From: a virus
Reading direction: 5' to 3' (one strand)
DNA length: 33,069 bases
UHGV virus genome: UHGV-1427736
The stretch's first letter is position 1. Every line of letters begins with the position of its first letter. Below the pieces are notes generated by a model. That model had not been told where the DNA came from. It saw nothing but the letters and a program-made list of their open reading frames with translations, and made no database searches. Positions 1,511 to 25,469 of the stretch are shown in pieces. The translations under genes and the position numbers were made by a program.

Positions 1511-3958
1511 TTAACCGTCATGCATCATGCTGGCACGGGCGCGCGCACGTTTATCCCGCTCGTATTTTTCGAGCGCATCCTGTAACTGGCGGTCAAGCTG
1601 TGTCCCCGGCGCAGTACCACCCGTCAGGCTGATGTGATATTCGTTTTTACTCTGGTCCACATAAGAGCGGCCAGCCGGTGCCGTAACCGGCTGATAAGCC
1701 TGATAACCTGCATAAGAGCTGGTCGCCGGAATATAACCACCGGTGCCATACGTGGCGGCATGAGTCCTTGCGGCGGTCTGGTCAAGTGTGTCTGACTCTT
1801 TGTTGATAACCCCGAGTTTTTCCAGTACCCAGTCAATACCGCTGCGCAGTTTGTTGAACGCATTAAGCGGCAGCATCAGCGCGTCAGCCAGTGCCTGCCC
1901 GAACATGACACCCGTGTCACGGCAACTGTTCAGGGTGTCCTGAGTGGCTTTGACCGGGGCAATCAGGTTTTTAAACCACTGCCACGCAGCCTGTAACTTT
2001 TCGCCCAGCCAGTCAAACACCGGTTTCAGTGGCGTGAACAGCTCCCCCACCGGCGCAAATGCCGCTTTCAGCCCTTCCACCACACCGCCAAAGAATGCGC
2101 TGACAGGCTCCCAGTATTTACGGATAAGTAACGCCCCGGCGACAATGGCGGCCACCACGGCCACAACCGGCCAGCTAATCGCCCCGATGGCGGTCATAAC
2201 AGCACTGCCAACCGTCGTGAAAATTGCCCCCATTGCGCCTGCTGCCGCGATGATGGCATTAATGCCGGTGATAACCGGCCAGGCTACAAGACCAATGGCA
2301 CCGATGATGCCAGTCAGCGCCAGTGCGCCACCGACAATGAGGCCGATGGTTGACGCCAGTGATTTGTTTTTCTGTATCCAGCCGTCGAGTTTTAACACAT
2401 ACTTTGTGGCCGTCTGCGTAAGCTTACGCAGTGCGCCTTCCTGCTGGTCAAACAGGTCTGTCCCCACCGCCTCATAAGCGGACTGAAACTCCTTAAAGTC
2501 ACCGCCGAGGTTGTCCTGCATGATATTTACCAGCTCGGCGGTCTTCCCGTCTGAGGCTTTAAACGCAGCGGTCAGTTTGTCCAGCTTTCCGGTTGAGGCG
2601 GCAGTCATCAGCACGGCGGCGGCTGAGCTGGCCTCCTCCCCGAAAATGGTTTTCATGTATTCAGCCTGCTGGGCAGTACCGAGCCGGTTTTTCTCAAAAC
2701 TGGCCTGCATTTCTTTCAGAATGGTAAATACTGGCCGGGTGTTTCCCTTGCTGTCTGAGGTTTTCACACCAAGCTCTTTCAGTGCATCCCATGCTTTTCC
2801 CGTCGGTGCCTGCAGGCGGCTTAACACGGCACGGCTTCCCGTCCCCGCCATTGAACCGGTAATTTTTGCATCATGCAGCGCCCCGACCATTGCGGCGGTT
2901 TCTTCAATGCTGACACCGGCATTTTTTGCCACAGGTGCGGCATAGGTCAGCGCATCGCTCATGCCGTCAAAATCGGCGGCGGTTTTGTTCATCGTCATGG
3001 AGAGAACATCCCCGATATGAGCGACCTTATCGTTTGAAAGCTGAAAGGCGGATTTCATCCCCATCAACAGGGCGGCGTTTTCTTCCATCGTGCGGCGGTT
3101 CGCCAGCGCCATGTTCAGCGTGACCGGCGTTGCCGCCTGAATGGCATCAACATCCCCACCGGCTTTCGCAATAATAATCTGCGCACCGGCTGCATCATCT
3201 GCCGAGGCGGCGGTATTGTCGCCGAGCTGGCGCGCCTGCTTGCGGAGTGCGGCCATTTCGGCGGAGTCTTTTGCCACACCTAGCACGGCCTGCAATTCTG
3301 AGTTTTTCTGCGCAAACTCATAACCGGGCATCAGTAGCTTAACACCGGCCATCGTTCCCGCCGCCGCAATCCCCACACCGGCAGCGCCCACTGAGGCCAT
3401 ATTTCCGGCCAGTTCCTTTCCGGCCTGATAACGCTGTTTTACTGCGTTAAGTTTTGCCTGTTGCGCACTGACACGCGCCAGCGCATCACGCTGACGGTTA
3501 AGCTGTGCGGTGGTTTCACTGATACGGTTTTTCAGTCCCTGCTCATCATGTGCAAGATTGCGGGTATTAATTCCCACAGCGGCCAGTTCCCGCTGCTGGC
3601 GTTTAACGGAATCTGTCAGGCGGTTATATTTCGCCTGTAAGTCCTCCGCCGCACGCTTTGCGGATTCCAGCACTTTCGCCTGAGCACGGGTCGGACGTTC
3701 GGTGTTTTTAAACTGTGTGGCAAGGGCTTCGGCTTCCTGCCGTGCCTTTTCAAGTGCATGACCAGTCACGGCGAGCTGTGCACTGGTCTTGCGGAATCCC
3801 TCAATACGGGATGCGTGACCGTTCAGCTCGCGCAGTGATTTTTGTGTTTCCCGGATATCCCCCGACAGCGACCTGCTCGCTGTACGGATGGATTTAAACG
3901 GGCGGGATGCCTGGTCAACAGCCCTGAGCAATACCTGTAATTTTACATTGTTACTCAT
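1511..3958 (-). CDS. T: Tail tape measure protein gpT
   Basis: Long Ala/Gly-rich protein with coiled-coil N-terminus and hydrophobic glycine-zipper segments, in the P2 T position. The ORF-track start at 3970 is a GTG; the first ATG (MSNNVKLQ) is at 3958 and has a GGAAG RBS. Confidence 0.85.
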   Translation of the reverse strand: MSNNVKLQVLLRAVDQASRPFKSIRTASRSLSGDIRETQKSLRELNGHASRIEGFRKTSAQLAVTGHALEKARQEAEALATQFKNTERPTRAQAKVLESAKRAAEDLQAKYNRLTDSVKRQQRELAAVGINTRNLAHDEQGLKNRISETTAQLNRQRDALARVSAQQAKLNAVKQRYQAGKELAGNMASVGAAGVGIAAAGTMAGVKLLMPGYEFAQKNSELQAVLGVAKDSAEMAALRKQARQLGDNTAASADDAAGAQIIIAKAGGDVDAIQAATPVTLNMALANRRTMEENAALLMGMKSAFQLSNDKVAHIGDVLSMTMNKTAADFDGMSDALTYAAPVAKNAGVSIEETAAMVGALHDAKITGSMAGTGSRAVLSRLQAPTGKAWDALKELGVKTSDSKGNTRPVFTILKEMQASFEKNRLGTAQQAEYMKTIFGEEASSAAAVLMTAASTGKLDKLTAAFKASDGKTAELVNIMQDNLGGDFKEFQSAYEAVGTDLFDQQEGALRKLTQTATKYVLKLDGWIQKNKSLASTIGLIVGGALALTGIIGAIGLVAWPVITGINAIIAAAGAMGAIFTTVGSAVMTAIGAISWPVVAVVAAIVAGALLIRKYWEPVSAFFGGVVEGLKAAFAPVGELFTPLKPVFDWLGEKLQAAWQWFKNLIAPVKATQDTLNSCRDTGVMFGQALADALMLPLNAFNKLRSGIDWVLEKLGVINKESDTLDQTAARTHAATYGTGGYIPATSSYAGYQAYQPVTAPAGRSYVDQSKNEYHISLTGGTAPGTQLDRQLQDALEKYERDKRARARASMMHDG

Positions 3959-4378
3959 TCGTGCTTCCACTTCGCCGGAGCGCCTTTTCGCGCCATGTGA
4001 TGAGTTCGGTCAGGCTCATGGGATACAGTTCTGATGGCGGCCAGTGAAATATCACTGCCACATCCGCCATCAGGTCATCGACCGACAGATTTTTCGGGAA
4101 CGTCACTGCACCGAGTTCGGCGACAAAAAACCGACCACCTTACCGGCCAGCGCCACAAGGTCAGGCAGTTCCAGTGCGGCGACTTCCTGCTCGGTCAGCA
4201 TCGGTGCAGTCATGCGCGGCAGCACCTTAATCAGTGCATCGACTTCGGAGTTCGCGACCGCAGCCAGACTGACACCGCGCAGCGTCCCGGCACTGGGTTT
4301 CATCAGCGTGACCTGTTCGATAACCTGCTCACCACGTTTGACCGGATTGTCCAGGGTAATCACATTTTCTTTGTTCAT
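3951..4378 (-). CDS. E': Tail assembly chaperone gpE+E' (programmed -1 frameshift product)
   Basis: Manual translation: after a -1 slip at the TTTTTTG heptamer (minus strand, 4124-4130) the frame continues VAELGAVTFPKNLSVDDLMADVAVIFHWPPSELYPMSLTELITWREKALRRSGSTNE and stops at 3951-3953, overlapping the T start. This matches the conserved E/E' arrangement upstream of the tape measure. Confidence 0.5.
4103..4378 (-). CDS. E: Tail assembly chaperone gpE
   Basis: 91 aa ORF in the P2 E position between FII and T, ending ...KVVGFLSPNSVQ just after the slippery site. Confidence 0.8.
   Translation of the reverse strand: MNKENVITLDNPVKRGEQVIEQVTLMKPSAGTLRGVSLAAVANSEVDALIKVLPRMTAPMLTEQEVAALELPDLVALAGKVVGFLSPNSVQ
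4124..4130 (-). other. Slippery heptamer TTTTTTG for the E/E' -1 ribosomal frameshift
   Basis: Plus strand reads caaaaaa at 4124-4130, i.e. TTTTTTG on the coding strand, 6 codons before the gpE stop. Confidence 0.55.
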
Positions 4379-4434: not shown

Positions 4435-4953
4435 TCACAGGCCGATATTGCGGCGGTGTTGCTCCAGCCGGTCGACGCCGTTCACCTTCTCAATCATGTT
4501 GATGGTGTCGATTTCGACCAGCTCCTTACCGTCCATCGTCAGCCGGAAATAGGTACAGACCACGGAGATTTTCGACTCGGTGTCTTCTCCCTGTTTACCC
4601 TCGCCGGTATCGATTTCTTTCTGACGTCCACGCATGACCACTTCGACGGCAACCGTTTCGCCGGTATCGTCGCGCTGGTAAGAGCCAGCAAAACGAATCG
4701 GCACGGCATCCACGCCGGTTGCTGCGTAAAGCTCCCAGATAACCGAATCCGGGAAGCCACCGAGCGACCACTCCATTGACAGCGCATCGTCATCAAGGCC
4801 GAGGTCTACCGGTGCGCTGCCGTTCATCCCCGCACCGCGATAGTTTTCGAGCTTACGGGTCAGTTTTGGTAGCGTGACGGACTTCGCAACGCCCTGATAG
4901 CTGTAGCCGTTCAGAAAGACGTTCATTAACTTGAGTTTGCGCGGCATTGCCAT
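4435..4953 (-). CDS. FII: Tail tube protein gpFII
   Basis: 172 aa ORF in the P2 FII position immediately downstream of FI. Confidence 0.85.
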   Translation of the reverse strand: MAMPRKLKLMNVFLNGYSYQGVAKSVTLPKLTRKLENYRGAGMNGSAPVDLGLDDDALSMEWSLGGFPDSVIWELYAATGVDAVPIRFAGSYQRDDTGETVAVEVVMRGRQKEIDTGEGKQGEDTESKISVVCTYFRLTMDGKELVEIDTINMIEKVNGVDRLEQHRRNIGL

Positions 4954-4965
4954 CGGTCAGGCTCC

Positions 4966-6156
4966 TTAATTGCTGTTAACCGAGGTGACCAGATTTGCCA
5001 GGTATTTATCGGTAATACGCTGGCGCAGGGTCAGGTTTTCGAGAGGAGGCACCGGGGTATAGTCGTAGTCGATATACAGTTTTCCGGCCTTGAGGGTTTC
5101 CGCATCGTTGGATTCTTCGCTGAACCAGCAGGTCGCATCCACGATATAGCCGTTTGTTTTCAGCTCACGGAATTTGGCATTGATGCCGTCAACGATGTCG
5201 CGAATCAGCGTTGCGGTGATGGGCTTGTCCACCGCCCACATGTGCGCCTCAGCCATCGTGTCGGCCAGCACCTGCGCGGTGCGGGTGTAGTTTTCAAAGA
5301 GGAACAGCGGGTCATCAGAGCAGGTACGGTTACCCCAGAAGCGGAAACCGTCGCGGCGAATCAGCGTTGTGACGCCAGACTCGTTCAACAGGTCAGCATC
5401 GGTGCCGGACTCCTGCAAATCCCAGAATACAGATGCGCTGATGCCGGTAACACCGTTTACCCCGACGTTGGACAGCGTTTTATGCCAGCCCTGCTCCTGG
5501 TCGATTTTAGCGCGCAGACCCAGCGCACGGGCGGTGGCATACGCGGTGGCGGTGGTACTGGTGACCGTATCCCATGCGAGGAAATCCGGCCAGATGACCA
5601 TCAGCTCACGCTGGCTGAAATTCTGGCGGTAGGCTTTCACCTCGGAAATGGTCTTACAGCCCCATGCGCTGATATATCCGAAAGCGCGCAGCTTCTGACA
5701 GACGGATGCTAGTGCAACAGCCACCTCTTTGGTATCCAGTCCCGGCACACCGAGAATACGCGGTTTAACACCGGTTACCGACTCCGCCGCCAGCAGGGCT
5801 TTCAGTCCGGTGTACTGACCGTTTTCGTCGGTGGTGCCGATGATATTGGAAACGGTCTGCGCAAGTTTCGTTTCCTCGTCGTCGCCGGTGCCGTCTTCCA
5901 CACGCACGACAACGGTGACCGGTTTTGACTGGTCGGCGATGGCCTGCAACGATGCCGCCAGCGTGCCTTTTTTACCGGCCTTTGCAATTGCGCTCTGCAC
6001 ATTGGTAATCAACACCGGTTTATTGAGGGGGAAGGTTTCCGCATCCGCATCGCTGGCCGTGCAGACCATGCCGACAATGGCAGTGGATACGGTGGAAATG
6101 ACGCGGGTGCCGTCGTTAATCTCCAGCACCTGCACGCCATGATGATAGTCACTCAT
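4966..6156 (-). CDS. FI: Contractile tail sheath protein gpFI
   Basis: Sheath-protein-sized ORF in the P2 FI position. The ORF-track start at 6309 gives a 51-aa N-terminal extension; I place the start at the ATG at 6156 (MSDYHHGVQVLE...), which has a GGAG RBS. Confidence 0.85.
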   Translation of the reverse strand: MSDYHHGVQVLEINDGTRVISTVSTAIVGMVCTASDADAETFPLNKPVLITNVQSAIAKAGKKGTLAASLQAIADQSKPVTVVVRVEDGTGDDEETKLAQTVSNIIGTTDENGQYTGLKALLAAESVTGVKPRILGVPGLDTKEVAVALASVCQKLRAFGYISAWGCKTISEVKAYRQNFSQRELMVIWPDFLAWDTVTSTTATAYATARALGLRAKIDQEQGWHKTLSNVGVNGVTGISASVFWDLQESGTDADLLNESGVTTLIRRDGFRFWGNRTCSDDPLFLFENYTRTAQVLADTMAEAHMWAVDKPITATLIRDIVDGINAKFRELKTNGYIVDATCWFSEESNDAETLKAGKLYIDYDYTPVPPLENLTLRQRITDKYLANLVTSVNSN

Positions 6157-6655
6157 CCGTTTAACTCCGTGGTTAATGGGTGCAACTATTTTCTGTTGTG
6201 CAGAGCATGAGACGCTATTTGACCTGGCTGGCCAGTGGATGAAACAACAGATAAAGAAAAGGCGGGCAATCAGCCCGCCAGCCTTGATTTGCACTCTCTC
6301 AATTTCCAACTGACAAAATACGTAGCCAAAACGCTATCAAATCTGACAGCCTGCTTTGAGCGAGAAACAGACATGGATGGCATACAGTGAAAGTAGCCGC
6401 ACAATGAGCATCACTGCAATTCTGAATTCAAGCTCTAATACTATTGAGACCGTATCATACAGTCACTCGCAAAAATTACTTTACCTGAGTGAAAAAATTG
6501 ATTCCAAGCAAAATGAAAACTTGTAATTCATTATTACATGCATAATAATGAATAAAAACTTGAGCTATATAAACCAAAGTTGTTCCGAATAGTCCGTTGA
6601 GACATCACTCGAATTATAGGAATACAAGGTTTTATTTTTATAAGGAATCGCTCCC

Positions 6656-8920
6656 ATGGGTTTGCAAAGCATAAGAATAAAAAACTTACTATCATTTAAT
6701 GATGTAATAATAAATTCCCTAGAGGATGTAAATTGCATTGTAGGGATGAATAATGTTGGCAAATCCAATCTTATGAAAATATTGAAATATTTTTACGACA
6801 AACTTGACGACATAAAAGTAATACCTCCTGATTTTCATTCTAGTTATACTCCTTCAGGGTCAATAACATTGACTTATGATGTAACAAGAATAAAGAGAAT
6901 TGTAATGAACCCTAATAACAATGGTCGCTTTCACAAGCATATTTATAACACTTTATTTAAGCCACAATCATTCATCCGAAAGCCGCAGAAATTCTGTCTT
7001 CCTTTCATATCTCCTTTGGGTTTCCAAAGAAAAAGCACTTATAGCATTACACTCACAATTTCTAAAGATGACTCCGTAACTTGGTCAATTAGCACACCAA
7101 ATGCCCGGCATCTAATTAAAACTCTATTTCCTTTTTTCCATATTGAAACCAGACACATTGACTTATACGACTGGAATAGCATATGGAAAATGCTCAGCAG
7201 TATAAATTCCTTTAATTTCTCTGAAATAAAAAAAGAAGAACTCCTTGAGTTTTTGAATGAGAAAATATCAACTAAGCGGGGTAGTTACAAGAAGTATATA
7301 GAAAGAGTTGAAAATGTAATCCATACTAAACCTTACACCTATAAAGATAAAGTCGTTAATTATCTAAAAATAGTTTTAGATGGCGATATTTTCATAAATA
7401 AAGGTGAAGAACTACATGTTCAGTCGGATGGCACGAACTCTCACAAATATCTTGAAATTATACTTAGCCTATTAATTTCATTAACAAGAACAGAATTTAT
7501 CAATCCAATTATATATATTGATGAACCTGAAATTGGGCTACATCCAAAACTTAGCGAGAACTTTATTGAGAACATAAGCCTGACATATAAAAAGTATGAT
7601 AAAACCCATGAGGAAATTGAGCCTGGAAAATATTCAACACCATATCCAACTCTTATATTTAGCACTCATTCTCCGAGTTTACTAAAACTCACGCTAAAAT
7701 CTTTCTTACATAAACAGCAGGTTTTGCATTTTTCAAAAGAACGTGACAACTCGACCAAAATTTCAAAATTAAACTCTAAATATAATGACATTAGATTTAT
7801 AAATATGCTTAGCGATAATGAGGCCCGTCTATTCTTTAGTGAATACATTCTATTTGTAGAGGGCGCCACAGAAGTTGAATTGTTTAGAAATTATAATCTG
7901 CAAAAGCTGTTTCCAGTACTTAAAAGGTTAGATGTGTATGATTGCGATGAAGTAATGTTGAAAAATATAAACCCCAGCTACTCAAATGCAGCCATCCCAT
8001 TTCTAGTAGTAAAGGATATTGATCAGATTGCCGTTGTTGACTTCGAACATGAACAATTTAAATTTAATTCGAAAGGGAAATCAATTATTAATAAAATCAT
8101 TAAGAGAGATAAACTACACTATTTTTCGACATACCAAAAACCTTTTCTTAACGCAGCAAAATTTCTTTTAAGCCAAGATGAAAGGAAAGTAACATTCAGT
8201 GAAAATGGCCTAAAATTCAGACACTTCAGTATAGGCAGAGTTATAAGCGCAGTTAATTTTTTATCCTCTAAAGATAATGTTTATTATACTTCTACAACGA
8301 TAGAAGGCTCATTGATCAATGAATTCTCTTTAGAGACATTCTCTTTATGGATCATTGACATAGTAATGAGAAGCTTTAATGTAAATAATAAAAACCCTGT
8401 AAAAATGATTAATGCTCTGCTGCAAAAATACGATATTAAAACCCAATCAAAACAACTTTTTCCCAAAATACTTTCAAAATGTGAAACAAATCATAACCTA
8501 CCATTGCGACACATGAGATTATTGAAAATCATTAAAATTAGATATGCTAAAGAAATAATTGATGAGTTTAAAAAAACCATCCCCGACGTAAAAGACCAAG
8601 TTGCTATCTTGCGCCTTATTTTTAGTGGCAAAACAGAAACTCTTGTAAGTATAGAAATGCATTATAAAATTGATCAAAAACCGATACGGCAAGATATATT
8701 GGATTATATCAAAGCATTAAAGTCAGAAAATTTCTCTTTTATGAGTTCTTACATAGGAAAGACTTCTGGATGGGTTACAAGCTTCATTGATTTTAGCCTT
8801 AATCATTATTCAGCCCTAGATAAAGAAAATGTCGAAAAAAAATTCCGCTTGGCTTTTCCTGAAATTTCGCATATCATCGATCATGCTTCTTCTTCGATAG
8901 AAGCTGGAGGGCTCAAATGA
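6656..8920 (+). CDS. OLD-family nuclease: ABC-type ATPase fused to a C-terminal Toprim-like domain
   Basis: 754 aa. Walker A GMNNVGKSN (aa ~30), Walker B/D-loop IIYIDEPEIGLHP, H-loop LIFSTHSPS; then FVEGATEVELF (aa ~400) and VVKDIDQ (aa ~455), consistent with Toprim Glu and DxD motifs. Gene is markedly AT-rich compared with the flanking phage genes. Confidence 0.7.
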   Translation: MGLQSIRIKNLLSFNDVIINSLEDVNCIVGMNNVGKSNLMKILKYFYDKLDDIKVIPPDFHSSYTPSGSITLTYDVTRIKRIVMNPNNNGRFHKHIYNTLFKPQSFIRKPQKFCLPFISPLGFQRKSTYSITLTISKDDSVTWSISTPNARHLIKTLFPFFHIETRHIDLYDWNSIWKMLSSINSFNFSEIKKEELLEFLNEKISTKRGSYKKYIERVENVIHTKPYTYKDKVVNYLKIVLDGDIFINKGEELHVQSDGTNSHKYLEIILSLLISLTRTEFINPIIYIDEPEIGLHPKLSENFIENISLTYKKYDKTHEEIEPGKYSTPYPTLIFSTHSPSLLKLTLKSFLHKQQVLHFSKERDNSTKISKLNSKYNDIRFINMLSDNEARLFFSEYILFVEGATEVELFRNYNLQKLFPVLKRLDVYDCDEVMLKNINPSYSNAAIPFLVVKDIDQIAVVDFEHEQFKFNSKGKSIINKIIKRDKLHYFSTYQKPFLNAAKFLLSQDERKVTFSENGLKFRHFSIGRVISAVNFLSSKDNVYYTSTTIEGSLINEFSLETFSLWIIDIVMRSFNVNNKNPVKMINALLQKYDIKTQSKQLFPKILSKCETNHNLPLRHMRLLKIIKIRYAKEIIDEFKKTIPDVKDQVAILRLIFSGKTETLVSIEMHYKIDQKPIRQDILDYIKALKSENFSFMSSYIGKTSGWVTSFIDFSLNHYSALDKENVEKKFRLAFPEISHIIDHASSSIEAGGLK

Positions 8921-9034
8921 GCTGACGCATGCCGTCACTTGCTCCAGCAAACACTAGCTCGGATTGTCTTGCGTCCGCTAAGCCGCTTTAAGCCTCACGG
9001 GGTGTAAAGATGTTATTGGTATCGAAGAGGAAGC
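8885..9034 (+). ncRNA. Candidate retron msr-msd (non-coding RNA) flanked by a1/a2 inverted repeats
   Basis: GCTTCTTCTTCGAT (8885-8898) and ATCGAAGAGGAAGC (9021-9034) form a 14-bp inverted repeat with one G-U wobble, enclosing ~122 nt that is GC-richer than the flanks. Inside: stem GCTGGAG (8903-8909) / CTCCAGC (8942-8948) around two small hairpins (GCTCA..TGAGC and TGACG..CGTCA). The repeat lies directly upstream of the RT and a2 overlaps its RBS. Confidence 0.3.
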
Positions 9035-9040
9035 TTTTAC

Positions 9041-10138
9041 ATGAAACATAAAATTAATAAAATTAACAATGATTTTTATAAAAATTTTTATCTAAGAGAA
9101 ACATTCTCCGATGATATTATTATGACTCACGGAGTCCCTGAGATTTCCAATGACGATTATAAAAGCATTTCATTAAAGAATAGATTATGTTTCACTATAA
9201 GAAAAAGCTCCCCGCATAAAAAAATACAAGAAAGACTTATAAAAAATTTCCTAGTAAAAGTTCCTCTTAGCTCACCTGCAATTGCCTATCGTAAAAAATT
9301 AAACTATTTGAATTTTCTAGAACCTCATATCCATGGTGAGAACTTTTGTCGAATTGACTTATGTAATTTTTTTCATAACATAAACTATAACTTTGCAAGG
9401 GAGTGTTTCAAATCCTACTTTGAAGATGAATATCTGGTAAATAAAAAAATCAAAGTTATTGATGCATTTTTAAATAGTTTATCTATTGAGATTGTAGTCA
9501 ACAATAAAAAGAAAAAAATATTTCCAATGGGATTCGCCACATCACCTTTCATATCCAATATAATTTTCAGAAAGTTAGATATTTTAATTAAAAGTTTGTG
9601 TGACAAAAGAAGCATCATTTACACTCGTTATGCTGATGATATGCTTTTTTCGAGCTCCGGGAAAGACAAACTTCTTGGAAGTGAACATTTTGACAACGAG
9701 ATATCAACTATTGTCAATACGGCAGGACTGTCCCTCAACAAACATAAAAAAATATTTAAGAAAGGCATAATCTCACTAAACGGCTATGTAATAGAAAATA
9801 AAAATGGAGGGGGAGAGAGAGGGAGTATAAGAATATCTAATGGAAAAATGTATTTAATACGGAAAGCACTAGATAAATTTAAAAAGGGATATTCTAAAGA
9901 GCATATTTGCAAAAAAGTATTTTCTGTTAAATCACCAACTGTCAAGTATAATAACAATGCAGATCAGTTTGTAACGGATTTTTATAATTCACAATTCTCT
10001 AATAAGTTAGCTGGTTATCGTTCATATTTAATATCATTAGTAAAATTTAATGATAAATTCAGATGTTTTCACGAAAACGAAATCACCAAATACTCAGTGA
10101 TTATTGATGAAATTTCTAATGCACTGCTAAAACCCTAG
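9041..10138 (+). CDS. Retron-type reverse transcriptase
   Basis: 365 aa. RT motifs IFPMGFATSPFISNIIFRKLD and IIYTRYADDMLF (YADD box), plus PHIHGENFCRIDLCNFF, align closely with the retron Ec86 RT as I recall it. Size and lack of extra domains fit a retron RT. GAGGAAG RBS. AT-rich. Confidence 0.8.
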   Translation: MKHKINKINNDFYKNFYLRETFSDDIIMTHGVPEISNDDYKSISLKNRLCFTIRKSSPHKKIQERLIKNFLVKVPLSSPAIAYRKKLNYLNFLEPHIHGENFCRIDLCNFFHNINYNFARECFKSYFEDEYLVNKKIKVIDAFLNSLSIEIVVNNKKKKIFPMGFATSPFISNIIFRKLDILIKSLCDKRSIIYTRYADDMLFSSSGKDKLLGSEHFDNEISTIVNTAGLSLNKHKKIFKKGIISLNGYVIENKNGGGERGSIRISNGKMYLIRKALDKFKKGYSKEHICKKVFSVKSPTVKYNNNADQFVTDFYNSQFSNKLAGYRSYLISLVKFNDKFRCFHENEITKYSVIIDEISNALLKP

Positions 10139-10158
10139 CCTTAGAAAGTTAATGTTTT

Positions 10159-10176
10159 GGCCCTAAAGCAAGGGCC
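10159..10176 (+). terminator. Hairpin downstream of the RT gene (possible terminator)
   Basis: GGCCCT-aaagca-AGGGCC stem-loop about 20 nt after the RT stop, but followed by TTAATAG rather than a clean T-run. Confidence 0.3.
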
Positions 10177-10560
10177 TTAATAGTAAAAATAGTTACCAGC
10201 ATAAGTATTCCTTCAACTAATCACACAAATTAACGTTAGCAACGTTCCCTTTTTACACCGTCTGAGCACTAAGCTGTCGGTCATTCTGGTCTACCATACT
10301 ATTATACGTAACATCCAAGAGTGTTCCTGCAAACGGTCGTAGAAAATGCGGGCTTCGCCATTTTCTGGCCGACGCCGGTCTCGTCGAGTTCTTCTGACTG
10401 TTCAAGTGCAAATGCGCCTGTAGGTATCCCTACAAAAGAAACCATCAACTTTTAGATAGTATCTGGCACTCCAACTCCCGCTGTTGACTCGGAGCGGACT
10501 GTCAGATTAGGCTTTACTCTGTACCATAGATACGTTAGCTCACTCCAGAGATCATACAAC

Positions 10561-11088
10561 TTATTGCGGCATGTCCGGCCATTCAGGATTTGAAGGGTCC
10601 ACACGACTGACCAGAACGCTGTAGCGTTCCCATGCATCCAGTCGACTGCGCTCCTCACCTGTTGCCATATTCAGCCTGACAGCGCGCTCCAGCGGCAAAA
10701 TTACGGATTCAGCTTCGGAAAGCAAAGCTGCCTTATGTAATTCCGCTAGTTTCTGCTGTTCGTCTGCCGTATAAATCCGCTTAATCACGGCACCATCCTT
10801 AAACATCCATTTACCTGAGTCATCAGCACGCCGGTTGGCAGTAATATCAGGAACCTCAACGACGCTAAAACCTTCAGGATTAAGCGTTGAAGCATCTCTG
10901 GTGATGGCGACAATAATATTATTTTCATCGTAAACAATCTTTATTGTGTCTGGCTGAAAATTACTTACTTCCTCATACCAGTTTTTTCCGTCTTCGGACC
11001 ATAACCAGATAACATCAAAATTCTTTGTTAGCTGATATTGCTCTTTTGTTTTTGGATTACCTGACTTAATGTTCTTTAAATGCTGCAT
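10561..11088 (-). CDS. G: Tail fiber assembly protein gpG
   Basis: 175 aa, same length as P2 gpG, directly downstream of H. Confidence 0.85.
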
Positions 11089-11091
11089 TAC

Positions 11092-12969
11092 TTACACCTG
11101 CGCAACGTTATACCATGTGCCATTGATGTATTTTTGTATCGGCCTGAAGATGGCCTCATCATCGCCATCTACTTCACCAATGATTCTTAATCCGGTAATC
11201 GTGTGTCCGGCTTTTTCATAACGACCACCTCGCGCCATCAATTGAACAACTCGCGTACCCAGGCGAACATCTTTCACATAGCGGGAATCAAAATTCCCCC
11301 AGTTGCTGGGTTGCATCTGACCGTTAACAGCAAATATTACCGAGTTATCTGTATTTCGCTGGCTATAGAAATGCCATCCGGACTCATCGCCTAACTCTGC
11401 AACCACTGGACGGTTGGAAGCACCCCATAAATTAAAGGTAATATTCTTCGTGGATGTGTTAGAGCTGGATAGCGAGAACTTTTTACTATCCCCTGCCTGA
11501 ATATTTTTAAAAGCAATAGCCACTCCATTCTGAAAACGGAATACACGCTGACTGTTAGCATAAACATCAAGAATACCGTCTCCATTCTGTTTAAATCCGG
11601 TATCATTATCACCAAGGACAATAGAGCTACCACCTAGTGCATTCGTCGTACCAACTCCAAGACAGCCATTAATGACGGCATTAACAAGAATATTTAGTGC
11701 ATCCCATTTCAGCGTCATCAGGTCTTTTGTTGTGGTACTCTGGCGGCTTCTCCATTTGAAATATTCATTGCCGTTATCCCCCGTTTCAAACCACATGTAT
11801 GAATCAGCGTCACCATCGGCATCATTTTTAAATCCAATCTTCGCCCAGTCAGTATTTCGAATCCAGGCAAGGATTGAGTCGTTTTCAAAAGTAATCCCGC
11901 CGGACAAGGTATCGCCATTCTTTTGCACCGCGTTCCTGGCCCTGTTTACCGTTTCCTGCAAACCGAGGTATTCGATAACGGCAGCAATGGTCGCTTTAGC
12001 CAGAATATCCCGCCCGACTTTTGTCAGGGTTGCCAAACTGGCAACATCATTCCCCGTAAAATACGGAAAGCTGTCTGCCGCAGTAGCAAGCCCCGCCAGC
12101 GCCGTCAGAGTGGCATCTTTCGGTTGCTTACCCGCAAGCGCATTAGTCATGGAGGTAGCAAAATTCGGGTCATTGCCCAGCGCCGCCGCCAGCTCGTTCA
12201 GCGTATTCAGTGCGTCAGGCGACGAGTCTACAATGGCGGCAATCGCGGCCATAACGAAAGCCGTGTTTGCGATCTGAGTATTATTCGTTCCCTGTCGCGC
12301 AGTTGGCGTCGTTGGCGTTCCGGTCAGTGCAGGGCTGTTTAATGGCGCTTTTTTGTTCGCTTCATCCATTACCGTCTTAACAGCTTTTGGTGTTGCGGCG
12401 AGCGTTTCAGACGTGCTGTTGGTCGCACTGCTTAACTGAGTAAAACCTTTTGCGGTCAGCGAGGCGTCAGGGTGACGTCGTGACTGTTCATGTTCTGCAA
12501 TTTTGTCATCAACGTAATCCTGCGTTGCCATCACCGTTGTGGTGTCAATGGTCAGCGCCACTGAGGCCACACTGCTGACGATGATGACCATGCGGCAGGT
12601 CTGCGAACGCCCTGAGCCTTCGGCAAGGGCAGGCTTATAACTTTCGGCCATGTTCGCCACGGCAATTAACGTTCCCGCATCATCGTACAGGCCAAGCTCA
12701 CGCATCCAGAAACCGCCCACCTCCGGCGGAATAACCAGCTCTGCGATAATATAATTACTGTTTCGTTTGTCCTGGCTGATTTTGTTCAGCGTATGTCGCC
12801 AGACTTCGTGGATAAGCCCGGTCTGTCCGGCATCCGGGACAGGCAATTTACCACCGCCATCCCCGACGGCCATCGTGGTAATGTTGACCTTCCGCCCTCC
12901 CGGTGCGGTTGCCGCTGCCAGCTTTGCTGCACCGGCAGTGGTGATAACGGTTTTGAATTTTGTGCTCAT
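11092..12969 (-). CDS. H: Tail fiber protein gpH
   Basis: 625 aa. Conserved P2 H-like N-terminus (MSTKFKTVITTAGAAKLAAATAPGGRKVNITTMAVGDGGG) with a variable C-terminal receptor-binding region. Confidence 0.85.
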   Translation of the reverse strand: MSTKFKTVITTAGAAKLAAATAPGGRKVNITTMAVGDGGGKLPVPDAGQTGLIHEVWRHTLNKISQDKRNSNYIIAELVIPPEVGGFWMRELGLYDDAGTLIAVANMAESYKPALAEGSGRSQTCRMVIIVSSVASVALTIDTTTVMATQDYVDDKIAEHEQSRRHPDASLTAKGFTQLSSATNSTSETLAATPKAVKTVMDEANKKAPLNSPALTGTPTTPTARQGTNNTQIANTAFVMAAIAAIVDSSPDALNTLNELAAALGNDPNFATSMTNALAGKQPKDATLTALAGLATAADSFPYFTGNDVASLATLTKVGRDILAKATIAAVIEYLGLQETVNRARNAVQKNGDTLSGGITFENDSILAWIRNTDWAKIGFKNDADGDADSYMWFETGDNGNEYFKWRSRQSTTTKDLMTLKWDALNILVNAVINGCLGVGTTNALGGSSIVLGDNDTGFKQNGDGILDVYANSQRVFRFQNGVAIAFKNIQAGDSKKFSLSSSNTSTKNITFNLWGASNRPVVAELGDESGWHFYSQRNTDNSVIFAVNGQMQPSNWGNFDSRYVKDVRLGTRVVQLMARGGRYEKAGHTITGLRIIGEVDGDDEAIFRPIQKYINGTWYNVAQV

Positions 12970-21835: not shown

Positions 21836-23608
21836 ATGACCATCACCACAGACACCACTCTTTTGCACGACCCGCGTCGTCAGGCGGCGCTGCTGTACTG
21901 GCAGGGGTTTTCCGTGCCGCAGATTGCCGCCATGTTGCAGATGAAACGCCCGACGGTGCAGAGCTGGAAACAGCGCGACGGCTGGGACAGCGTTGCCCCC
22001 ATCAGCCGTGTCGAAATGAGTCTGGAAGCGCGGCTGACCCAGCTCATTATCAAACCGCAGAAAACCGGCGGTGACTTCAAGGAAATTGACCTGCTCGGAC
22101 GCCAGATTGAACGACTGGCACGGGTAAACCGCTACAACCAGACCGGCAACGAGGCAGACCTTAATCCGAACATCGCTAACCGCAACAAAGGCGGGCGACG
22201 CAAACCGAAAAAGAATTTTTTCAGCGACGAGGCTATCGAAAAGCTGGAGCAGATTTTCTTTGAGCAGTCTTTCGAATATCAGTTGCACTGGTATCGCGCC
22301 GGGCTTGAGCACCGCATCCGCGATATCCTGAAATCCCGCCAGATTGGCGCGACGTTTTATTTTTCCCGCGAGGCGCTGCTGCGCGCCCTGAAAACCGGTC
22401 ATAACCAGATTTTTCTGTCGGCCAGTAAAACGCAGGCGTATGTGTTCCGCGAATACATCATCGCCTTTGCCCGGCTGGTTGACGTTGACCTGACCGGTGA
22501 CCCGATTGCCCTGGGCAATAACGGCGCAAAACTGATTTTTCTCGGCACCAACTCCAACACCGCACAGAGCCATAACGGCGACCTGTACGTCGACGAGATT
22601 TTCTGGATCCCGAATTTTCAGGTACTGCGTAAGGTGGCATCAGGTATGGCCTCACAGAGTCACCTGCGCTCGACCTATTTCTCCACCCCGTCCACGCTGG
22701 CGCACGACGCCTACCCGTTCTGGTCGGGGGAACTGTTTAACCGGGGACGCGCCAGCGCCGCTGAACGCGTGGAAATCGACGTCAGTCATAACGCCCTTGC
22801 CGGTGGGCTTCTCTGTGCGGACGGCCAGTGGCGGCAGATTGTCACCATTGAGGACGCGCTGAAAGGCGGCTGCACGCTGTTCGACATTGAGCAGCTCAAA
22901 CGTGAAAACAGCGCCGACGATTTTAAAAACCTGTTCATGTGTGAATTTGTTGACGACAAGGCGTCGGTGTTCCCGTTCGAGGAGCTGCAACGCTGCATGG
23001 TCGACACGCTGGAAGAATGGGAAGACTATGCGCCGTTTGCCGCCAATCCGTTCGGCTCCCGCCCGGTATGGATTGGTTACGACCCGTCACACCGTGGCGA
23101 CAGCGCCGGATGCGTGGTACTGGCACCGCCGGTGGTGGCCGGTGGCAAATTCAGAATACTTGAGCGTCACCAGTGGAAAGGCATGGACTTTGCCACTCAG
23201 GCTGAATCCATCCGCAAACTCACTGAAAAATACAACGTCGAATACATCGGAATTGATGCCACCGGCCTCGGTGTCGGCGTGTTCCAGCTCGTGCGCTCGT
23301 TCTATCCCGCCGCGCGCGATATCCGCTACACACCGGAAATGAAAACCGCAATGGTGCTCAAGGCAAAAGACGTTATCCGTCGTGGCTGTCTGGAATATGA
23401 CGTCAGCGCCACCGACATCACCAGCTCGTTTATGGCTATCCGCAAGACCATGACCAGCAGCGGACGCAGCGCCACCTATGAGGCCAGCCGCAGCGAGGAA
23501 GCCAGCCACGCCGACCTCGCCTGGGCGACCATGCACGCCCTGTTAAATGAGCCACTCACCGCCGGTATCAGCACCTCGCTGACATCCACCATTCTGGAGT
23601 TTTACTGA
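21836..23608 (+). CDS. P: Terminase large (ATPase) subunit gpP
   Basis: Start placed at MTITTDTTLLHDPRRQAALLYWQGFS (ATG at 21836, 590 aa). P2 P position. Confidence 0.9.
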   Translation: MTITTDTTLLHDPRRQAALLYWQGFSVPQIAAMLQMKRPTVQSWKQRDGWDSVAPISRVEMSLEARLTQLIIKPQKTGGDFKEIDLLGRQIERLARVNRYNQTGNEADLNPNIANRNKGGRRKPKKNFFSDEAIEKLEQIFFEQSFEYQLHWYRAGLEHRIRDILKSRQIGATFYFSREALLRALKTGHNQIFLSASKTQAYVFREYIIAFARLVDVDLTGDPIALGNNGAKLIFLGTNSNTAQSHNGDLYVDEIFWIPNFQVLRKVASGMASQSHLRSTYFSTPSTLAHDAYPFWSGELFNRGRASAAERVEIDVSHNALAGGLLCADGQWRQIVTIEDALKGGCTLFDIEQLKRENSADDFKNLFMCEFVDDKASVFPFEELQRCMVDTLEEWEDYAPFAANPFGSRPVWIGYDPSHRGDSAGCVVLAPPVVAGGKFRILERHQWKGMDFATQAESIRKLTEKYNVEYIGIDATGLGVGVFQLVRSFYPAARDIRYTPEMKTAMVLKAKDVIRRGCLEYDVSATDITSSFMAIRKTMTSSGRSATYEASRSEEASHADLAWATMHALLNEPLTAGISTSLTSTILEFY

Positions 23609-24642
23609 TGAGCAAGAAAAAAGGGAAAACACCGCAACCTGCGGCAAAAAAAATGACCGCCAGCGCCCCGAAAATGGAGGCATTCACCTTTGGTGAGCCG
23701 GTGCCGGTACTCGACCGCCGTGACATTCTGGATTACGTCGAGTGCATCAGTAACGGCAGATGGTATGAGCCACCGGTCAGCTTTACCGGTCTGGCAAAAA
23801 GCCTGCGTGCTGCCGTACATCACAGCTCACCGATTTACGTCAAACGTAATATTCTGGCTTCAACGTTTATTCCGCACCCGTGGCTTTCCCAGCAGGATTT
23901 CAGCCGCTTTGTGCTGGATTTTCTGGTGTTCGGTAATGCGTTTCTGGAAAAGCGTTACAGCACCACCGGTAAGGTCATCAGACTGGAAACCTCACCGGCA
24001 AAATATACCCGCCGTGGTGTGGAAGAGGATGTTTACTGGTGGGTGCCGTCCTTCAACGAGCCGACAGCCTTCGCGCCCGGCTCCGTGTTTCACCTGCTGG
24101 AGCCCGATATTAATCAGGAGCTGTACGGCCTGCCGGAATATCTGAGCGCCCTTAACTCTGCCTGGCTGAATGAGTCGGCCACGCTGTTCCGCCGCAAGTA
24201 TTACGAAAACGGCGCACATGCCGGATACATCATGTACGTCACTGATGCCGTGCAGGATCGCAACGATATCGAAATGCTTCGCGAAAACATGGTGAAGTCG
24301 AAAGGCCGCAACAACTTTAAAAACCTGTTTCTCTATGCCCCGCAGGGGAAAGCCGACGGCATTAAAATTATCCCGCTCAGTGAAGTGGCAACGAAGGACG
24401 ATTTTTTTAATATCAAAAAAGCCAGCGCCGCTGACCTGCTGGACGCGCACCGCATCCCCTTTCAGTTGATGGGCGGCAAGCCGGAGAACGTCGGGTCGCT
24501 GGGCGATATTGAGAAAGTGGCAAAGGTCTTTGTCCGCAATGAGCTTATCCCGTTACAGGACAGGATCCGCGAGATAAACGGCTGGCTCGGTCAGGAGGTC
24601 ATCCGCTTTAAAAACTACTCACTGGACACTGACAACGGCTGA
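23608..24642 (+). CDS. Q: Portal protein gpQ
   Basis: 344 aa ORF; ATGA overlap with the P stop, as in P2. Confidence 0.9.
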   Translation: MSKKKGKTPQPAAKKMTASAPKMEAFTFGEPVPVLDRRDILDYVECISNGRWYEPPVSFTGLAKSLRAAVHHSSPIYVKRNILASTFIPHPWLSQQDFSRFVLDFLVFGNAFLEKRYSTTGKVIRLETSPAKYTRRGVEEDVYWWVPSFNEPTAFAPGSVFHLLEPDINQELYGLPEYLSALNSAWLNESATLFRRKYYENGAHAGYIMYVTDAVQDRNDIEMLRENMVKSKGRNNFKNLFLYAPQGKADGIKIIPLSEVATKDDFFNIKKASAADLLDAHRIPFQLMGGKPENVGSLGDIEKVAKVFVRNELIPLQDRIREINGWLGQEVIRFKNYSLDTDNG

Positions 24643-24830: not shown

Positions 24831-24958
24831 CGCCCGCTTCATGGGTCGGTTTTAATGCAGGTGCACGAACACACTGGAGACGCACCAGTACTGGCGGTGG
24901 TCACGTAGATCCGCCCCTTAAAAGCCATGCAGAATAATGCAACTATTGCGGGCGTCGG

Positions 24959-25378
24959 CTAATCATCTTCTAAAGGTGGAATTTTGATGCCACTAATTAG
25001 CAGTACTTTCCGGTATGCCTCAAAAATAATGTTGTGTGTTTTTTGTAAATCATCGAGCATTTTTTGCCGTCCTGCTGGGGTATCTTTGGCAAAATTATGA
25101 GCGCGAAAAAAATCATGTGCCAAGTAGTTTCTGGCTTTAAGAGCATCTGACACATACTCCAGTGTATCAGCATCCTCCACCATCCTAGACTTCAGTGCGT
25201 AATTCAATTTACCCAGCGTGTATTTATCCATTTCTAAAAACTGTTTTTTCAGCGACTGTATATCTTTCCCCTGACTCATATCATACTCAGTGATAACATT
25301 TATCAACTCAGTCTCCAGTAATTGAGCTGCTTCCGAAGCATAACCAAATTTCCAATAAACCGTATCAAGCGTCACCAT
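24959..25378 (-). CDS. Small hypothetical protein with an Rx4H (HEPN-like) motif; partner of the adjacent HNH nuclease
   Basis: 139 aa, AT-rich, with no P2 counterpart I recognise. Contains ARNYLAHDFF (R-x4-H). GGGGAA RBS 8 nt ahead of the ATG; 91 bp downstream of the HNH gene on the same strand. Confidence 0.5.
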   Translation of the reverse strand: MVTLDTVYWKFGYASEAAQLLETELINVITEYDMSQGKDIQSLKKQFLEMDKYTLGKLNYALKSRMVEDADTLEYVSDALKARNYLAHDFFRAHNFAKDTPAGRQKMLDDLQKTHNIIFEAYRKVLLISGIKIPPLEDD

Positions 25379-25469
25379 ATAATCTATTCCCCATATAACA
25401 AATCACACCCCAAATTAAATCATAATACATAATTAAATCTAACGCCTCGCTGCACCAGAAGAAGTCATG

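What the first reader, a model, noticed from the sequence alone, without database searches (positions are those of the whole stretch)
6310..10560. AT-rich cargo island at the P2 G-to-FI (Z/fun) locus carrying an OLD-nuclease plus retron-type RT pair
Between the tail fiber assembly gene G and the sheath gene FI, where P2 has Z/fun, sits a strongly AT-rich two-gene operon on the opposite strand to the flanking tail genes. It encodes an OLD-family ATPase-Toprim nuclease followed by a retron-type RT. Retrons with OLD effectors are a known defence class (Eco8-like), so the family is probably not new. What is worth checking is the order (effector before RT), the divergent RT motifs and the implied ncRNA position.
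Basis: partly seen in the sequence, partly recalled or inferred. Interest (0 to 1): 0.7.

Follow-up and report, generated by a model that had tools for sequence, protein, structure and literature searches.

The report
Eco8-type retron in P2 prophage
This AT-rich insert in a P2-like E. coli prophage is an intact but diverged copy of the already well-studied Retron-Eco8 anti-phage system (OLD nuclease, msr-msd RNA, reverse transcriptase), so it is a new member of a known family, not a new kind of system.

Summary
Window 6367-10477 (GC about 0.30 against about 0.56 in the flanks) replaces the fun(Z) segment of phage P2, between tail-fibre assembly gene G and sheath gene FI, and like fun(Z) it lies on the opposite strand.

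It carries a complete type I-B2 (Retron-Eco8 family) retron:
- OLD-family ATPase-Toprim effector, 6656-8920. It scores 654 bits against the NCBIfam Eco8-effector equivalog (cutoff 250).
- A 154-nt msr-msd ncRNA, 8883-9036, which I located here.
- A retron RT, 9041-10138 (PADLOC RT_I-B, 353 bits).

Both proteins match the solved Eco8 structures, at 41% (RT) and 47% (OLD) identity. Effector-ncRNA-RT is the normal Eco8 order. The RT motifs (PMG, YADD, xNG) are intact. The ncRNA lies in the 120-nt gap, with its a1 arm inside the OLD 3' end.

A covariance model finds this RNA upstream of the RT in 28 related loci, and 42 of 48 base pairs show compensatory changes. The 3.6-kb cassette also occurs in other genomic contexts in Serratia, Pectobacterium, Proteus, Morganella and Providencia. 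Only 2 of 5426 complete E. coli genomes carry it at this P2 locus.

Low interest. msDNA synthesis and defence activity are inferred, not tested.

The parts
6367..10477 (.). Cargo segment that replaces the P2 fun(Z) segment between G and FI (AT-rich island)
   Evidence: GC profile. Breakpoints of homology to P2 NC_001895 with the P2 annotation. 378 E. coli genomes share only the outer flanks and carry other cargo there.
6617..10194 (+). Conserved mobile retron cassette (effector, ncRNA, RT and about 40/56 nt of flanks)
   Evidence: blastn at 74-83% identity over this span to loci in Serratia, Pectobacterium, Proteus, Morganella, Providencia and a metagenome contig, all in different genomic contexts.
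6656..8920 (+). Retron Eco8-family OLD effector (ABC ATPase + TOPRIM nuclease), 754 aa
   Evidence: NCBIfam NF038234 retron_eff_Eco8, 654 bits (cutoff 250). PADLOC ATPase-Toprim_I-B, 699 bits. PDB Eco8 OLD nuclease, 760 bits over residues 1-750. 47% identity to Eco8 OLD over 591 aa. Walker A K36, Walker B D289-E290, EGATE with E402, D454-x-D456, F92/H95.
8849..8877 (+). Promoter-like site (TTGGCT-17-TATCAT) inside the OLD 3' coding sequence; putative promoter of the ncRNA-RT transcript
   Evidence: Consensus scan (the count of such sites in the region equals chance). A -10-like TATNNT hexamer lies 3-7 nt before a1 in 25 of the 29 family loci and 12-13 nt before it in four. Its first T falls on a third codon position in 27 of the 29, and the residue there varies. 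Inference, not shown.
8883..9036 (+). msr-msd ncRNA (154 nt)
   Evidence: 15-nt a1/a2 inverted repeat. MFE z-score -2.8. Alignment with Eco8 and six relatives. RNAalifold consensus. Model R1 scores 187 bits here and finds full-length matches upstream of the RT in 28 loci. 92.5% of cells paired, and 42 of 48 pairs with changes on both sides.
8883..8899 (+). Inverted repeat a1 (IRa1), lying inside the OLD CDS (codons for A-S-S-S-I)
   Evidence: Pairs with 9020-9036. Aligns with Eco8 r1-r17.
8900..8900 (+). Predicted branching (priming) guanosine
   Evidence: Aligns with Eco8 rG18, the published branching G (PMC12887533, PMC13402713). The sequence GATAG is invariant in all loci.
8900..8957 (+). 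msr region (predicted 58 nt, two RNA stem-loops inside a 7-bp closing helix)
   Evidence: Homology mapping onto Eco8 r18-r81. Helices with compensatory changes.
8949..9018 (+). msd template; predicted 70-nt msDNA 5'-CAATAACATCTTTACACCCCGTGAGGCTTAAAGCGGCTTAGCGGACGCAAGACAATCCGAGCTAGTGTTT-3'
   Evidence: The same mapping applied to the Eco8 locus returns exactly the published 75-nt msDNA with all published segment boundaries (against PMC12887533).
9020..9036 (+). Inverted repeat a2 (IRa2), preceded by the opposing G at 9019; contains the GAGGA Shine-Dalgarno of the RT
9041..10138 (+). Retron RT, type I-B, 365 aa
   Evidence: PADLOC RT_I-B, 353.5 bits (next best RT_II-A, 115). PDB Eco8 RT, 298.6 bits. 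Pfam RVT_1. 41% identity to Eco8 RT. PMG 162-164, YADD 197-200, LNG 246-248.
10160..10177 (+). GC-rich hairpin GGCCCT-AAAGCA-AGGGCC after the RT stop; possible terminator
   Evidence: Read from the sequence. It lies inside the part conserved with Serratia and Pectobacterium. The terminator scan did not call it because the T tract is weak.
4966..6156 (-). P2 FI tail sheath gene (left flank)
   Evidence: RefSeq annotation of the identical UPEC85 prophage. Homology to P2.
10561..11088 (-). P2 G tail-fibre assembly gene (right flank)

Best explanation
The island is a horizontally acquired 3.6-kb defence cassette inserted at the Z/fun cargo locus of a P2-like prophage. It encodes a complete retron of type I-B2, the Retron-Eco8 family.

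Inferred mechanism, by homology with Eco8:
1. The 154-nt msr-msd RNA (8883-9036) folds through its a1/a2 arms.
2. The RT primes from the 2'-OH of G8900 and copies 9018 back to 8949, giving a branched RNA-DNA msDNA of about 70 nt.
3. RT, msDNA and the OLD ATPase-Toprim nuclease assemble into an auto-inhibited complex.
4. On infection by another phage, that phage's single-stranded-DNA-binding protein binds the msDNA.
5. This releases the nuclease, which degrades phage and host DNA, so the infection aborts.

The prophage thereby protects its lysogen from competing phages. No SSB gene is annotated in this prophage, so its own induction would not be expected to set the system off.

Shown here: family membership of both proteins, intact catalytic residues, the ncRNA with covariation support, and the insertion breakpoints. 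Inferred: msDNA synthesis, complex formation, the SSB trigger, and an internal ncRNA-RT promoter.
For: Effector: NCBIfam equivalog retron_eff_Eco8, 654 bits against a cutoff of 250. PADLOC ATPase-Toprim_I-B, 699 bits, E 1.6e-210. End-to-end match to the solved Eco8 OLD nuclease, 760 bits.

RT: PADLOC RT_I-B, 353.5 bits. Solved Eco8 RT, 298.6 bits over residues 6-363.

Residues that abolish defence when mutated in Eco8 (PMC12887533, PMC13402713) are all present: K36, Walker B, E402, DxD and YADD. The msDNA-contacting residues F92/H95 of the OLD protein are also present.

[quoted passage not shown] The same mapping reproduces the published 75-nt Eco8 msDNA. Model R1 finds the RNA in 28 related loci, always just upstream of the RT. 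92.5% of cells are paired, against 40-46% in the slid controls, and 42 of 48 pairs carry compensatory changes.

Architecture: OLD, a gap of 119-121 nt, then RT in the close relatives and in Eco8 itself.

Context: RefSeq already names the effector in the identical UPEC85 sequence. The P2 breakpoints and the fun(Z) analogy come.
Against: Nothing here is experimental for this copy. Identity to the characterised Eco8 is only 41% (RT) and 47% (OLD).

The msDNA is predicted to be 5 nt shorter than in Eco8, and its second DNA stem-loop (DSLb) is unrelated in sequence.

The FDYY loop becomes ordered on SSB binding in Eco8 and is needed for defence there. Here it is FSTY, preceded by a 5-residue insertion. 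The trigger or its specificity could therefore differ.

The RT falls below the cutoff of the only NCBIfam retron RT model it hits, St85 at 118 bits against 235. NCBIfam returned no Eco8-type RT model.

The alignment behind the pair counts was fitted to the model, which biases those counts towards the structure.
Confidence: 0.9

Rival explanations
1. Same family and architecture, but a functionally distinct subtype. The subclade found in Escherichia, Serratia, Pectobacterium, Proteus, Morganella, Providencia and Edwardsiella senses a different phage trigger, or a different range of SSBs, than Eco8. The reason would be that the variable msDNA stem-loop DSLb and the activation loop have diverged.
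For: RT identity falls from 71-90% within the subclade to 44% or less for all other relatives. DSLb is the only fast-evolving part of the ncRNA, at 76% mean pairwise identity, against 99% for DSLa and 100% for a2 among seven relatives. FDYY is replaced by FSTY with a 5-residue insertion before it. The msDNA is predicted at 70 nt rather than 75 nt.
Against: All catalytic residues and the DSLa-contacting residues are conserved. The overall RNA architecture is identical. Divergence at this level is usual within a retron type and need not change the trigger.
Confidence: 0.25
2. The cassette is an inactive relic, carried passively in the prophage.
For: It is rare, at 2 of 5426 complete E. coli genomes. 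A related Providencia copy has its OLD gene split into two pieces, 215 and 522 aa (L088).
Against: Both ORFs are full length relative to homologues and to the solved structures. All catalytic motifs are intact. The ncRNA scores highest of all loci against the family model, 187 bits. The two E. coli copies are 99.5% identical over 4.25 kb.
Confidence: 0.05
3. The RT is not a retron RT. It would be a DRT/Abi-type RT (P2-like phages are known to carry an RT at their other variable locus), paired with a Gabija-like or stand-alone OLD nuclease.
For: Weak profile hits to Drt2 (38.6 bits) and to GajA models (about 40-52 bits). Rousset 2022 (PMC9122126) cites Odegrip 2006 for a functional RT in a variable P2 locus.
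Against: Drt2 scores 38.6 bits against a cutoff of 390. GajA scores are more than ten times lower than the I-B effector model, and there is no GajB helicase nearby. A retron ncRNA with a1/a2 arms and a branching G is present and covaries. The solved Eco8 proteins are the top PDB matches.
Confidence: 0.02

Closest known systems
Retron-Eco8 of E. coli 200499 (type I-B2 of Mestre et al. 2020); cryo-EM structures 9lbq, 9lp9, 9p4j and others
   Same: The three components are in the same order (OLD effector, msr-msd, RT) with the same spacing of about 120 nt. The a1/a2 sequence, branching G and opposing G are shared, as is the RNA architecture of two RNA stem-loops and two DNA stem-loops. DSLa is nearly identical. 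The Toprim motifs EGxxE and DxD are present, as are Walker A/B, YADD/PMG, and the OLD residues F92/H95 that hold the msDNA lasso (PMC12887533, PMC13402713, PMC7736814).
   Different: Identity is only 41% (RT) and 47% (OLD). The predicted msDNA is 70 nt rather than 75 nt, and the RNA stem-loops are shorter. DSLb is unrelated in sequence. The FDYY activation loop reads FSTY, with a 5-residue insertion before it. The genomic context differs: the P2 prophage Z/fun locus here, against an integrase-plus-relaxase element next to mutS for canonical Eco8.
Close orthologues in Serratia marcescens, Pectobacterium, Proteus, Morganella, Providencia and Edwardsiella (uncharacterised)
   Same: RT identity is 71-90%. 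The ncRNA is 154 nt in all, the gene lengths match, and the 3.6-kb cassette is conserved at 74-83% DNA identity.
   Different: They sit elsewhere: between chromosomal phn/permease and nrdDG genes (Serratia), in a lambda-like tail region (Proteus), or next to int/xis (Morganella). None is next to P2 tail genes.
P2 fun(Z), and the 'Z-region' cargo of P2-EC46, -EC48 and -EC58 (GenBank AJ512680, AJ512681, AJ512683)
   Same: Same insertion site between G and FI. Same opposite-strand orientation. All are non-essential lysogenic-conversion or phage-exclusion cargo; cloned fun(Z) blocks T5.
   Different: The genes are unrelated. The P2 hotspot surveyed systematically for defence systems (Rousset 2022, PMC9122126) is the other locus, gpA-gpQ (old/tin).
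Type I-A retrons (Eco4/Ec83, Eco7/Ec78) and type I-C (Eco2/Ec67)
   Same: They are retrons with a nuclease effector that is controlled by the msDNA.
   Different: The RT scores much lower against these (43-53 bits in PDB; PADLOC RT_I-A 87 bits, RT-Toprim_I-C 71 bits). In I-A the effector is split into an ATPase and an HNH protein encoded after the RT, and in I-C a Toprim domain is fused to the RT (PMC7736814).

Membership tests
Retron type I-B2 / Retron-Eco8 family | RT belongs to the I-B retron RT group | tested here: met
   PADLOC RT_I-B PDLC02938, 353.5 bits, E 2.7e-106, end to end; the next best model, RT_II-A, scores 115 bits. Solved Eco8 RT, 298.6 bits over residues 6-363. 41% identity.
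Retron type I-B2 / Retron-Eco8 family | RT catalytic motifs (PMG, YADD, I/L-NG) | tested here: met
   PMG 162-164, YADD 197-200, LNG 246-248. P162, G164, Y197, A198, D199 and G248 are invariant in 24 family members.
Retron type I-B2 / Retron-Eco8 family | Effector is a single OLD-like protein: an ABC ATPase fused to a Toprim domain with motif IV EGxxE and motif V DxD | tested here: met
   NF038234 equivalog, 654.4 bits against a cutoff of 250. PADLOC ATPase-Toprim_I-B, 699 bits. Eco8 OLD structure sequence, 760 bits. K36, D289-E290, E402-G-A-T-E406, D454-I-D456. Motif definitions are from PMC7736814.
Retron type I-B2 / Retron-Eco8 family | Order effector, ncRNA, RT on one strand | tested here: met
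   6656-8920, 8883-9036 and 9041-10138, all on the + strand. Eco8 has the same order (L091, L096; PMC12887533).
Retron type I-B2 / Retron-Eco8 family | msr-msd ncRNA with terminal inverted repeats a1/a2 bordered by a branching G and an opposing G | tested here: met
   a1 8883-8899 pairs with a2 9020-9036; G8900 and G9019 border them. Family model, 187 bits. Covariation: 42 of 48 pairs with changes on both sides, and 0 of 500 shuffles reach the observed values.
Retron type I-B2 / Retron-Eco8 family | Production of branched msDNA | not testable with these tools
   Only a prediction: 70 nt of DNA on a 58-nt msr.
Retron type I-B2 / Retron-Eco8 family | Abortive-infection defence activated when phage SSB binds the msDNA | not testable with these tools
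   Known for Eco8 (PMC13402713). Here the msDNA-contact residues F92/H95 are conserved.
Retron type I-B2 / Retron-Eco8 family | FDYY activation loop of the effector (Eco8 residues 481-484) | tested here: inconclusive
   It aligns to F490-S-T-Y493, preceded by a 5-residue insertion. Two of the four residues are kept.
Non-retron defence RTs (DRT / Abi-type) | RT reaches the family model cutoff | tested here: not met
   Drt2 NF041746, 38.6 bits against a cutoff of 390. Group II intron RT, 37 bits against 300.
Gabija (GajA + GajB) | GajA-type OLD nuclease with an adjacent UvrD-like helicase GajB | tested here: not met
   The best GajA model scores 51.7 bits, against 699 for the I-B effector model. 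The island has no helicase ORF.
P2 Z/fun cargo locus | Variable segment bounded by the end of G and the pF/FI region of a P2-like prophage | tested here: met
   Breakpoints at 6366/6367 and 10477/10478 relative to P2. The prophage gene order runs from ogr to int, as in P2. 378 E. coli genomes share the flanks and carry other cargo. The right flank matches the 'Z-region' records of P2-EC46, -EC48 and -EC58.

The most novel reading that the evidence does not exclude
This copy represents an uncharacterised subclade of Eco8-type retrons (RT at 44% identity or less to every relative outside the subclade). Its shorter msDNA, its fast-evolving second DNA stem-loop and its altered activation loop would give it a different trigger specificity from Eco8. 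It would also spread as a self-contained 3.6-kb cassette, with an ncRNA promoter embedded in the effector's coding sequence, between chromosomal sites and cargo slots of unrelated prophages (P2-like and lambda-like).
Probability: 0.25. Interest if true: 0.4.

Novelty: new member of a known kind. Interest (0 to 1): 0.2.

Why it matters
It matters little for discovery. The family, its structure and its SSB-triggered mechanism were published in 2020-2026, and RefSeq already names the effector.

The modest value lies in five points.
1. The ncRNA is unannotated in RefSeq and absent from Rfam (no credible hit). It is now placed to the base, with a testable msDNA prediction.
2. A covariance model recovers the I-B2 ncRNA across Gammaproteobacteria and Campylobacterota.
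3. The P2 Z/fun slot, the P2 cargo locus that the 2022 hotspot survey did not analyse, can hold a retron.
4. A diverged natural variant, with a conserved DSLa and a variable DSLb, could help map which part of the msDNA sets SSB specificity.
5. A 70-nt msDNA scaffold could be one more option for retron-based editing.

Tried and rejected
Rfam scan of 6000-10800 at E up to 10. Only chance-level hits came back (snoR27, ST7-AS1, ODC IRES; all far below gathering score), so no curated family covers this ncRNA.

Inverted repeats flanking the cargo, as annotated in the P2-EC48 Z-region record. The best pair, 6340-6355 with 10493-10508, scores 22 while shuffles reach 24, so it is not above chance.

Promoter and terminator scan. 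There were 18 promoter-like sites against 18.2 expected, so the scan alone says nothing. Only the site at 8849-8877 gained support, and that came from cross-species conservation.

Search for the same cassette next to P2 tail genes in other species. tblastn of FI, FII, G and H against 40 related loci found nothing.

Deposited phage genomes. None carries this cassette; a Vibrio phage has a 36%-identical RT.

Small ORFs in the island flanks (6356-6526 +, 10253-10411 -). No Pfam hit, so they are treated as non-genes.

Literature search for Z/fun as a defence hotspot. The search tool could not match the term, and the Odegrip 2006 paper is not held.

Not done: structure prediction, because the solved Eco8 structures match by sequence end to end.

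Full report
**Observation.** The window is a nearly complete P2-like prophage. It is 100% identical over the queried 4.25 kb to E. coli UPEC85 (NZ_CM137000.1), where it lies next to yegR/yegS. GC falls to 0.28-0.37 across 6501-10000. On the FI side the tail genes are at 0.55-0.59, and on the other side G and the 3' part of H are at 0.43-0.46. The only long ORFs in the dip are on the + strand, at 6656-8920 (754 aa) and 9041-10138 (365 aa). The neighbours are on the - strand: FII 4435-4953, FI 4966-6156, G 10561-11088 and H 11092-12969.

Comparison with phage P2 fixes the junctions. Window 6108-6366 matches P2 17700-17438, which holds the FI start, the pF transcription start and the activator site. 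Window 10478-11200 matches P2 15356-14635, which is G plus 82 nt. The segment 6367-10477 therefore takes the place of P2 15357-17437. That P2 segment holds the V-operon terminator and fun(Z), a non-essential T5-exclusion gene that is also transcribed against the tail genes.

**The proteins.** The 754-aa protein is an OLD-family ABC-ATPase/Toprim nuclease of the retron type.
- It scores 654 bits on the NCBIfam equivalog 'retron Eco8 family effector endonuclease' (cutoff 250).
- It scores 699 bits on PADLOC ATPase-Toprim_I-B. Gabija GajA models reach about 50 bits.
- Against PDB sequences its only hit is the Retron-Eco8 OLD nuclease, 760 bits over residues 1-750.

The 365-aa protein is a retron RT.
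- It scores 353.5 bits, end to end, on PADLOC RT_I-B. The next best model scores 115 bits.
- It scores 298.6 bits against the solved Eco8 RT.
- Drt2 and group II intron models are far below their cutoffs.

Identity to Eco8 is 41% for the RT and 47% for the OLD protein over 591 aa. Every residue whose mutation abolishes Eco8 defence is present: Walker A K36, Walker B D289-E290, Toprim E402 within EGATE (the I-B2 signature EGxxE of Mestre et al., PMC7736814), D454-x-D456, and RT Y197-A-D-D200 (PMC12887533, PMC13402713). RT P162-M-G164 and L246-N-G248 are also present, as are the OLD residues F92/H95 that pack against the msDNA lasso. The RT motifs are therefore not divergent. The one notable difference is the FDYY loop, which becomes ordered on SSB binding in Eco8. 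It aligns to F490-S-T-Y493, preceded by a 5-residue insertion.

**The ncRNA.** A 15-nt inverted repeat (8885-8899 with 9020-9034, 93% complementary) brackets the intergenic region. The 221-nt stretch 8860-9080 folds better than all 200 shuffles (z = -2.8).

I retrieved the Eco8 locus itself (L091; its RT is essentially identical to the PDB chain) and six close relatives. Their alignment shows that the a1 arm, the following G, the a2 arm and the preceding G are nearly identical from this window to Eco8. As a check, I mapped the published Eco8 numbering (rG18 branching G, msr to rG81, msDNA dC1-dT75) onto L091. That reproduces a 75-nt msDNA with every published segment boundary.

The same mapping applied to the window gives these coordinates:

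| Element | Window coordinates |
|---|---|
| a1 | 8883-8899 |
| Branching G | 8900 |
| msr (58 nt) | 8900-8957 |
| msd template (70 nt) | 8949-9018 |
| Opposing G | 9019 |
| a2 | 9020-9036 |

RNAalifold returns the Eco8 architecture: an a1/a2 helix, a 7-bp closing helix, two RNA stem-loops and two template stem-loops. Seven of the pairs are compensatory.

A covariance model built from these eight sequences finds a full-length match immediately upstream of the RT in 28 loci. Beyond the close relatives and Eco8, these come from genera such as Marinomonas, Pseudoalteromonas, Shewanella, Vibrio, Sulfurimonas and Aliarcobacter. On that alignment 92.5% of cells are standard pairs, against 40-46% when partners are slid. 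42 of 48 pairs change on both sides, and no shuffle out of 500 reaches the observed values. The caveat is that the alignment was fitted to the model. Rfam has no family for this RNA.

The ncRNA thus sits where the family has it, in the gap between the genes. Its first 38 nt lie inside the OLD reading frame, and a1 encodes the conserved C-terminal A-S-S-S-I.

**Order and transcription.** Effector, ncRNA, RT is the native Eco8 arrangement (PMC12887533; L091 and L096). It holds in every close relative, with a gap of about 120 nt.

A promoter-like site (TTGGCT-17-TATCAT, 8849-8877) ends 5 nt before a1. On its own this means nothing, because the region has as many such sites as shuffled sequence. 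A TATNNT hexamer does recur before a1, however. It lies 3-7 nt upstream in 25 of the 29 family loci and 12-13 nt upstream in four; in Eco8 it is a perfect TATAAT. In 27 of the 29 loci its first T is the third position of a codon whose amino acid varies (H, Y, S, D, G, R, V, A, I), while T occupies only 32-48% of third positions in these genes. I read this as nucleotide-level selection for an internal promoter of the ncRNA-RT unit. It is an inference and not phylogenetically corrected.

**Mobility and rarity.** Homology to the relatives spans 6617-10194 at 74-83% identity and stops there. The contexts differ:
- In Serratia the cassette lies between phosphonate/permease genes and nrdDG.
- In Proteus it lies beside lambda-like tail genes.
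- In Morganella it lies beside int/xis.
- Canonical Eco8 lies in an integrase-plus-relaxase element next to mutS.
- A third E. coli lineage, in 36 genomes, lies in an IS-ridden island next to the ldtA and cobUST genes.

Only 2 of 5426 complete E. coli genomes carry this cassette. 378 genomes share just the P2 flanks and hold other cargo in the slot, including SIR2/PIN and DUF4145 genes. No deposited phage genome has the cassette.

Within the subclade the ncRNA is under strong constraint, except for the second template stem-loop. DSLb shows 76% mean pairwise identity, against 99% for DSLa and 100% for a2. In Eco8, DSLb is the part not resolved in the cryo-EM map (PMC12887533).

**Mechanism.** By homology with Eco8, the RT makes a branched msDNA and assembles with it and the OLD nuclease into an auto-inhibited complex. 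A phage SSB binding the msDNA releases the nuclease, and the infection aborts (PMC12887533, PMC13402713). Shown here are membership, intact catalytic residues and the RNA. Inferred are msDNA synthesis, complex assembly and the trigger. No SSB gene is annotated in this prophage, which fits a system aimed at competing phages.

**Verdict.** This is a diverged, apparently intact member of the Retron-Eco8 / type I-B2 family, sitting in the P2 Z/fun cargo slot. It is a new member of a known kind, and interest is low. The most novel reading still open is a change in trigger specificity in this subclade.

Noticed in passing
window 24950-26900: A second AT-rich island (GC 0.38-0.39) lies at the other P2 cargo hotspot, between portal Q (23608-24642 +) and replication endonuclease A (26911-29229 -). 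It holds two - strand genes. One, 25470-26801 (443 aa), has a C-terminal HNH_2 domain (6.6e-11) and about 300 N-terminal residues with no family hit. The other, 24959-25378 (139 aa), has no Pfam hit and only a faint PD-Lambda-3_B match (0.002). It is not a recognised system in PADLOC 2.0, so it may be an uncharacterised defence candidate.
   Followed up: partly
window 10266-10419; L092 5001-5149: A non-coding stretch downstream of the RT lies inside the island but outside the conserved retron cassette. It is 84% identical to a stretch about 215 nt downstream of a GajA/GajB-like pair (ATP-dependent nuclease plus helicase) in E. coli NCTC9064. Two different OLD-family defence cassettes therefore share a non-coding tail. 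It is otherwise found only in the two retron-bearing genomes.
   Followed up: partly
window 8872-8877 and the same position in 28 related loci: A -10-like hexamer TATNNT lies 3-7 nt upstream of the ncRNA a1 arm in 25 of the 29 type I-B loci and 12-13 nt upstream in four. It is built from the codons X-Ile-Ile/Leu of the effector's C-terminus. In 27 of the 29 the wobble base of the variable X codon is T. This suggests an ncRNA promoter embedded in the coding sequence.
   Followed up: partly
window 8958-8989 (template of msDNA stem-loop DSLb): Among seven close relatives this is the only fast-evolving part of the ncRNA: 14 variable columns and 76% identity, with pairing kept. DSLa, a1 and a2 are 98-100% identical even though the flanking genes are only about 80% identical.
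   Followed up: partly
window 6518-6561: A 19-nt-arm palindrome (AACTTGTAATTCATTATTA, 6 nt, TAATAATGAATAAAAACTT) overlaps a promoter-like site (6521-6549) about 100 nt upstream of the OLD start. It lies outside the part conserved with other species. It could be an operator or promoter specific to this insertion.
   Followed up: no
window 6261-6279 (- strand): A strong terminator-like hairpin (GGCGGGC-TGATT-GCCCGCC, then a T run) sits just upstream of the pF activator site, inside the P2-homologous flank. The annotated P2 V-operon terminator lies in the segment that was replaced. Late transcription from G may therefore run antisense through the whole retron until it reaches this hairpin.
   Followed up: no
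L097 (E. coli 675SK2) 4801-8292: A third Eco8-family lineage in E. coli occurs in 36 complete genomes. It matches canonical Eco8 DNA only across the ncRNA region (75% identity) and sits in an IS-rich island next to ldtA and cobUST. RefSeq leaves the RT unnamed and the ncRNA unannotated in all three lineages.
   Followed up: no
L088 (Providencia, Logan SRR31591577) 1789-4055: In one Providencia assembly the OLD effector gene is split into two ORFs (215 and 522 aa), while the RT is intact. This may be a decaying copy or an assembly error.
   Followed up: no
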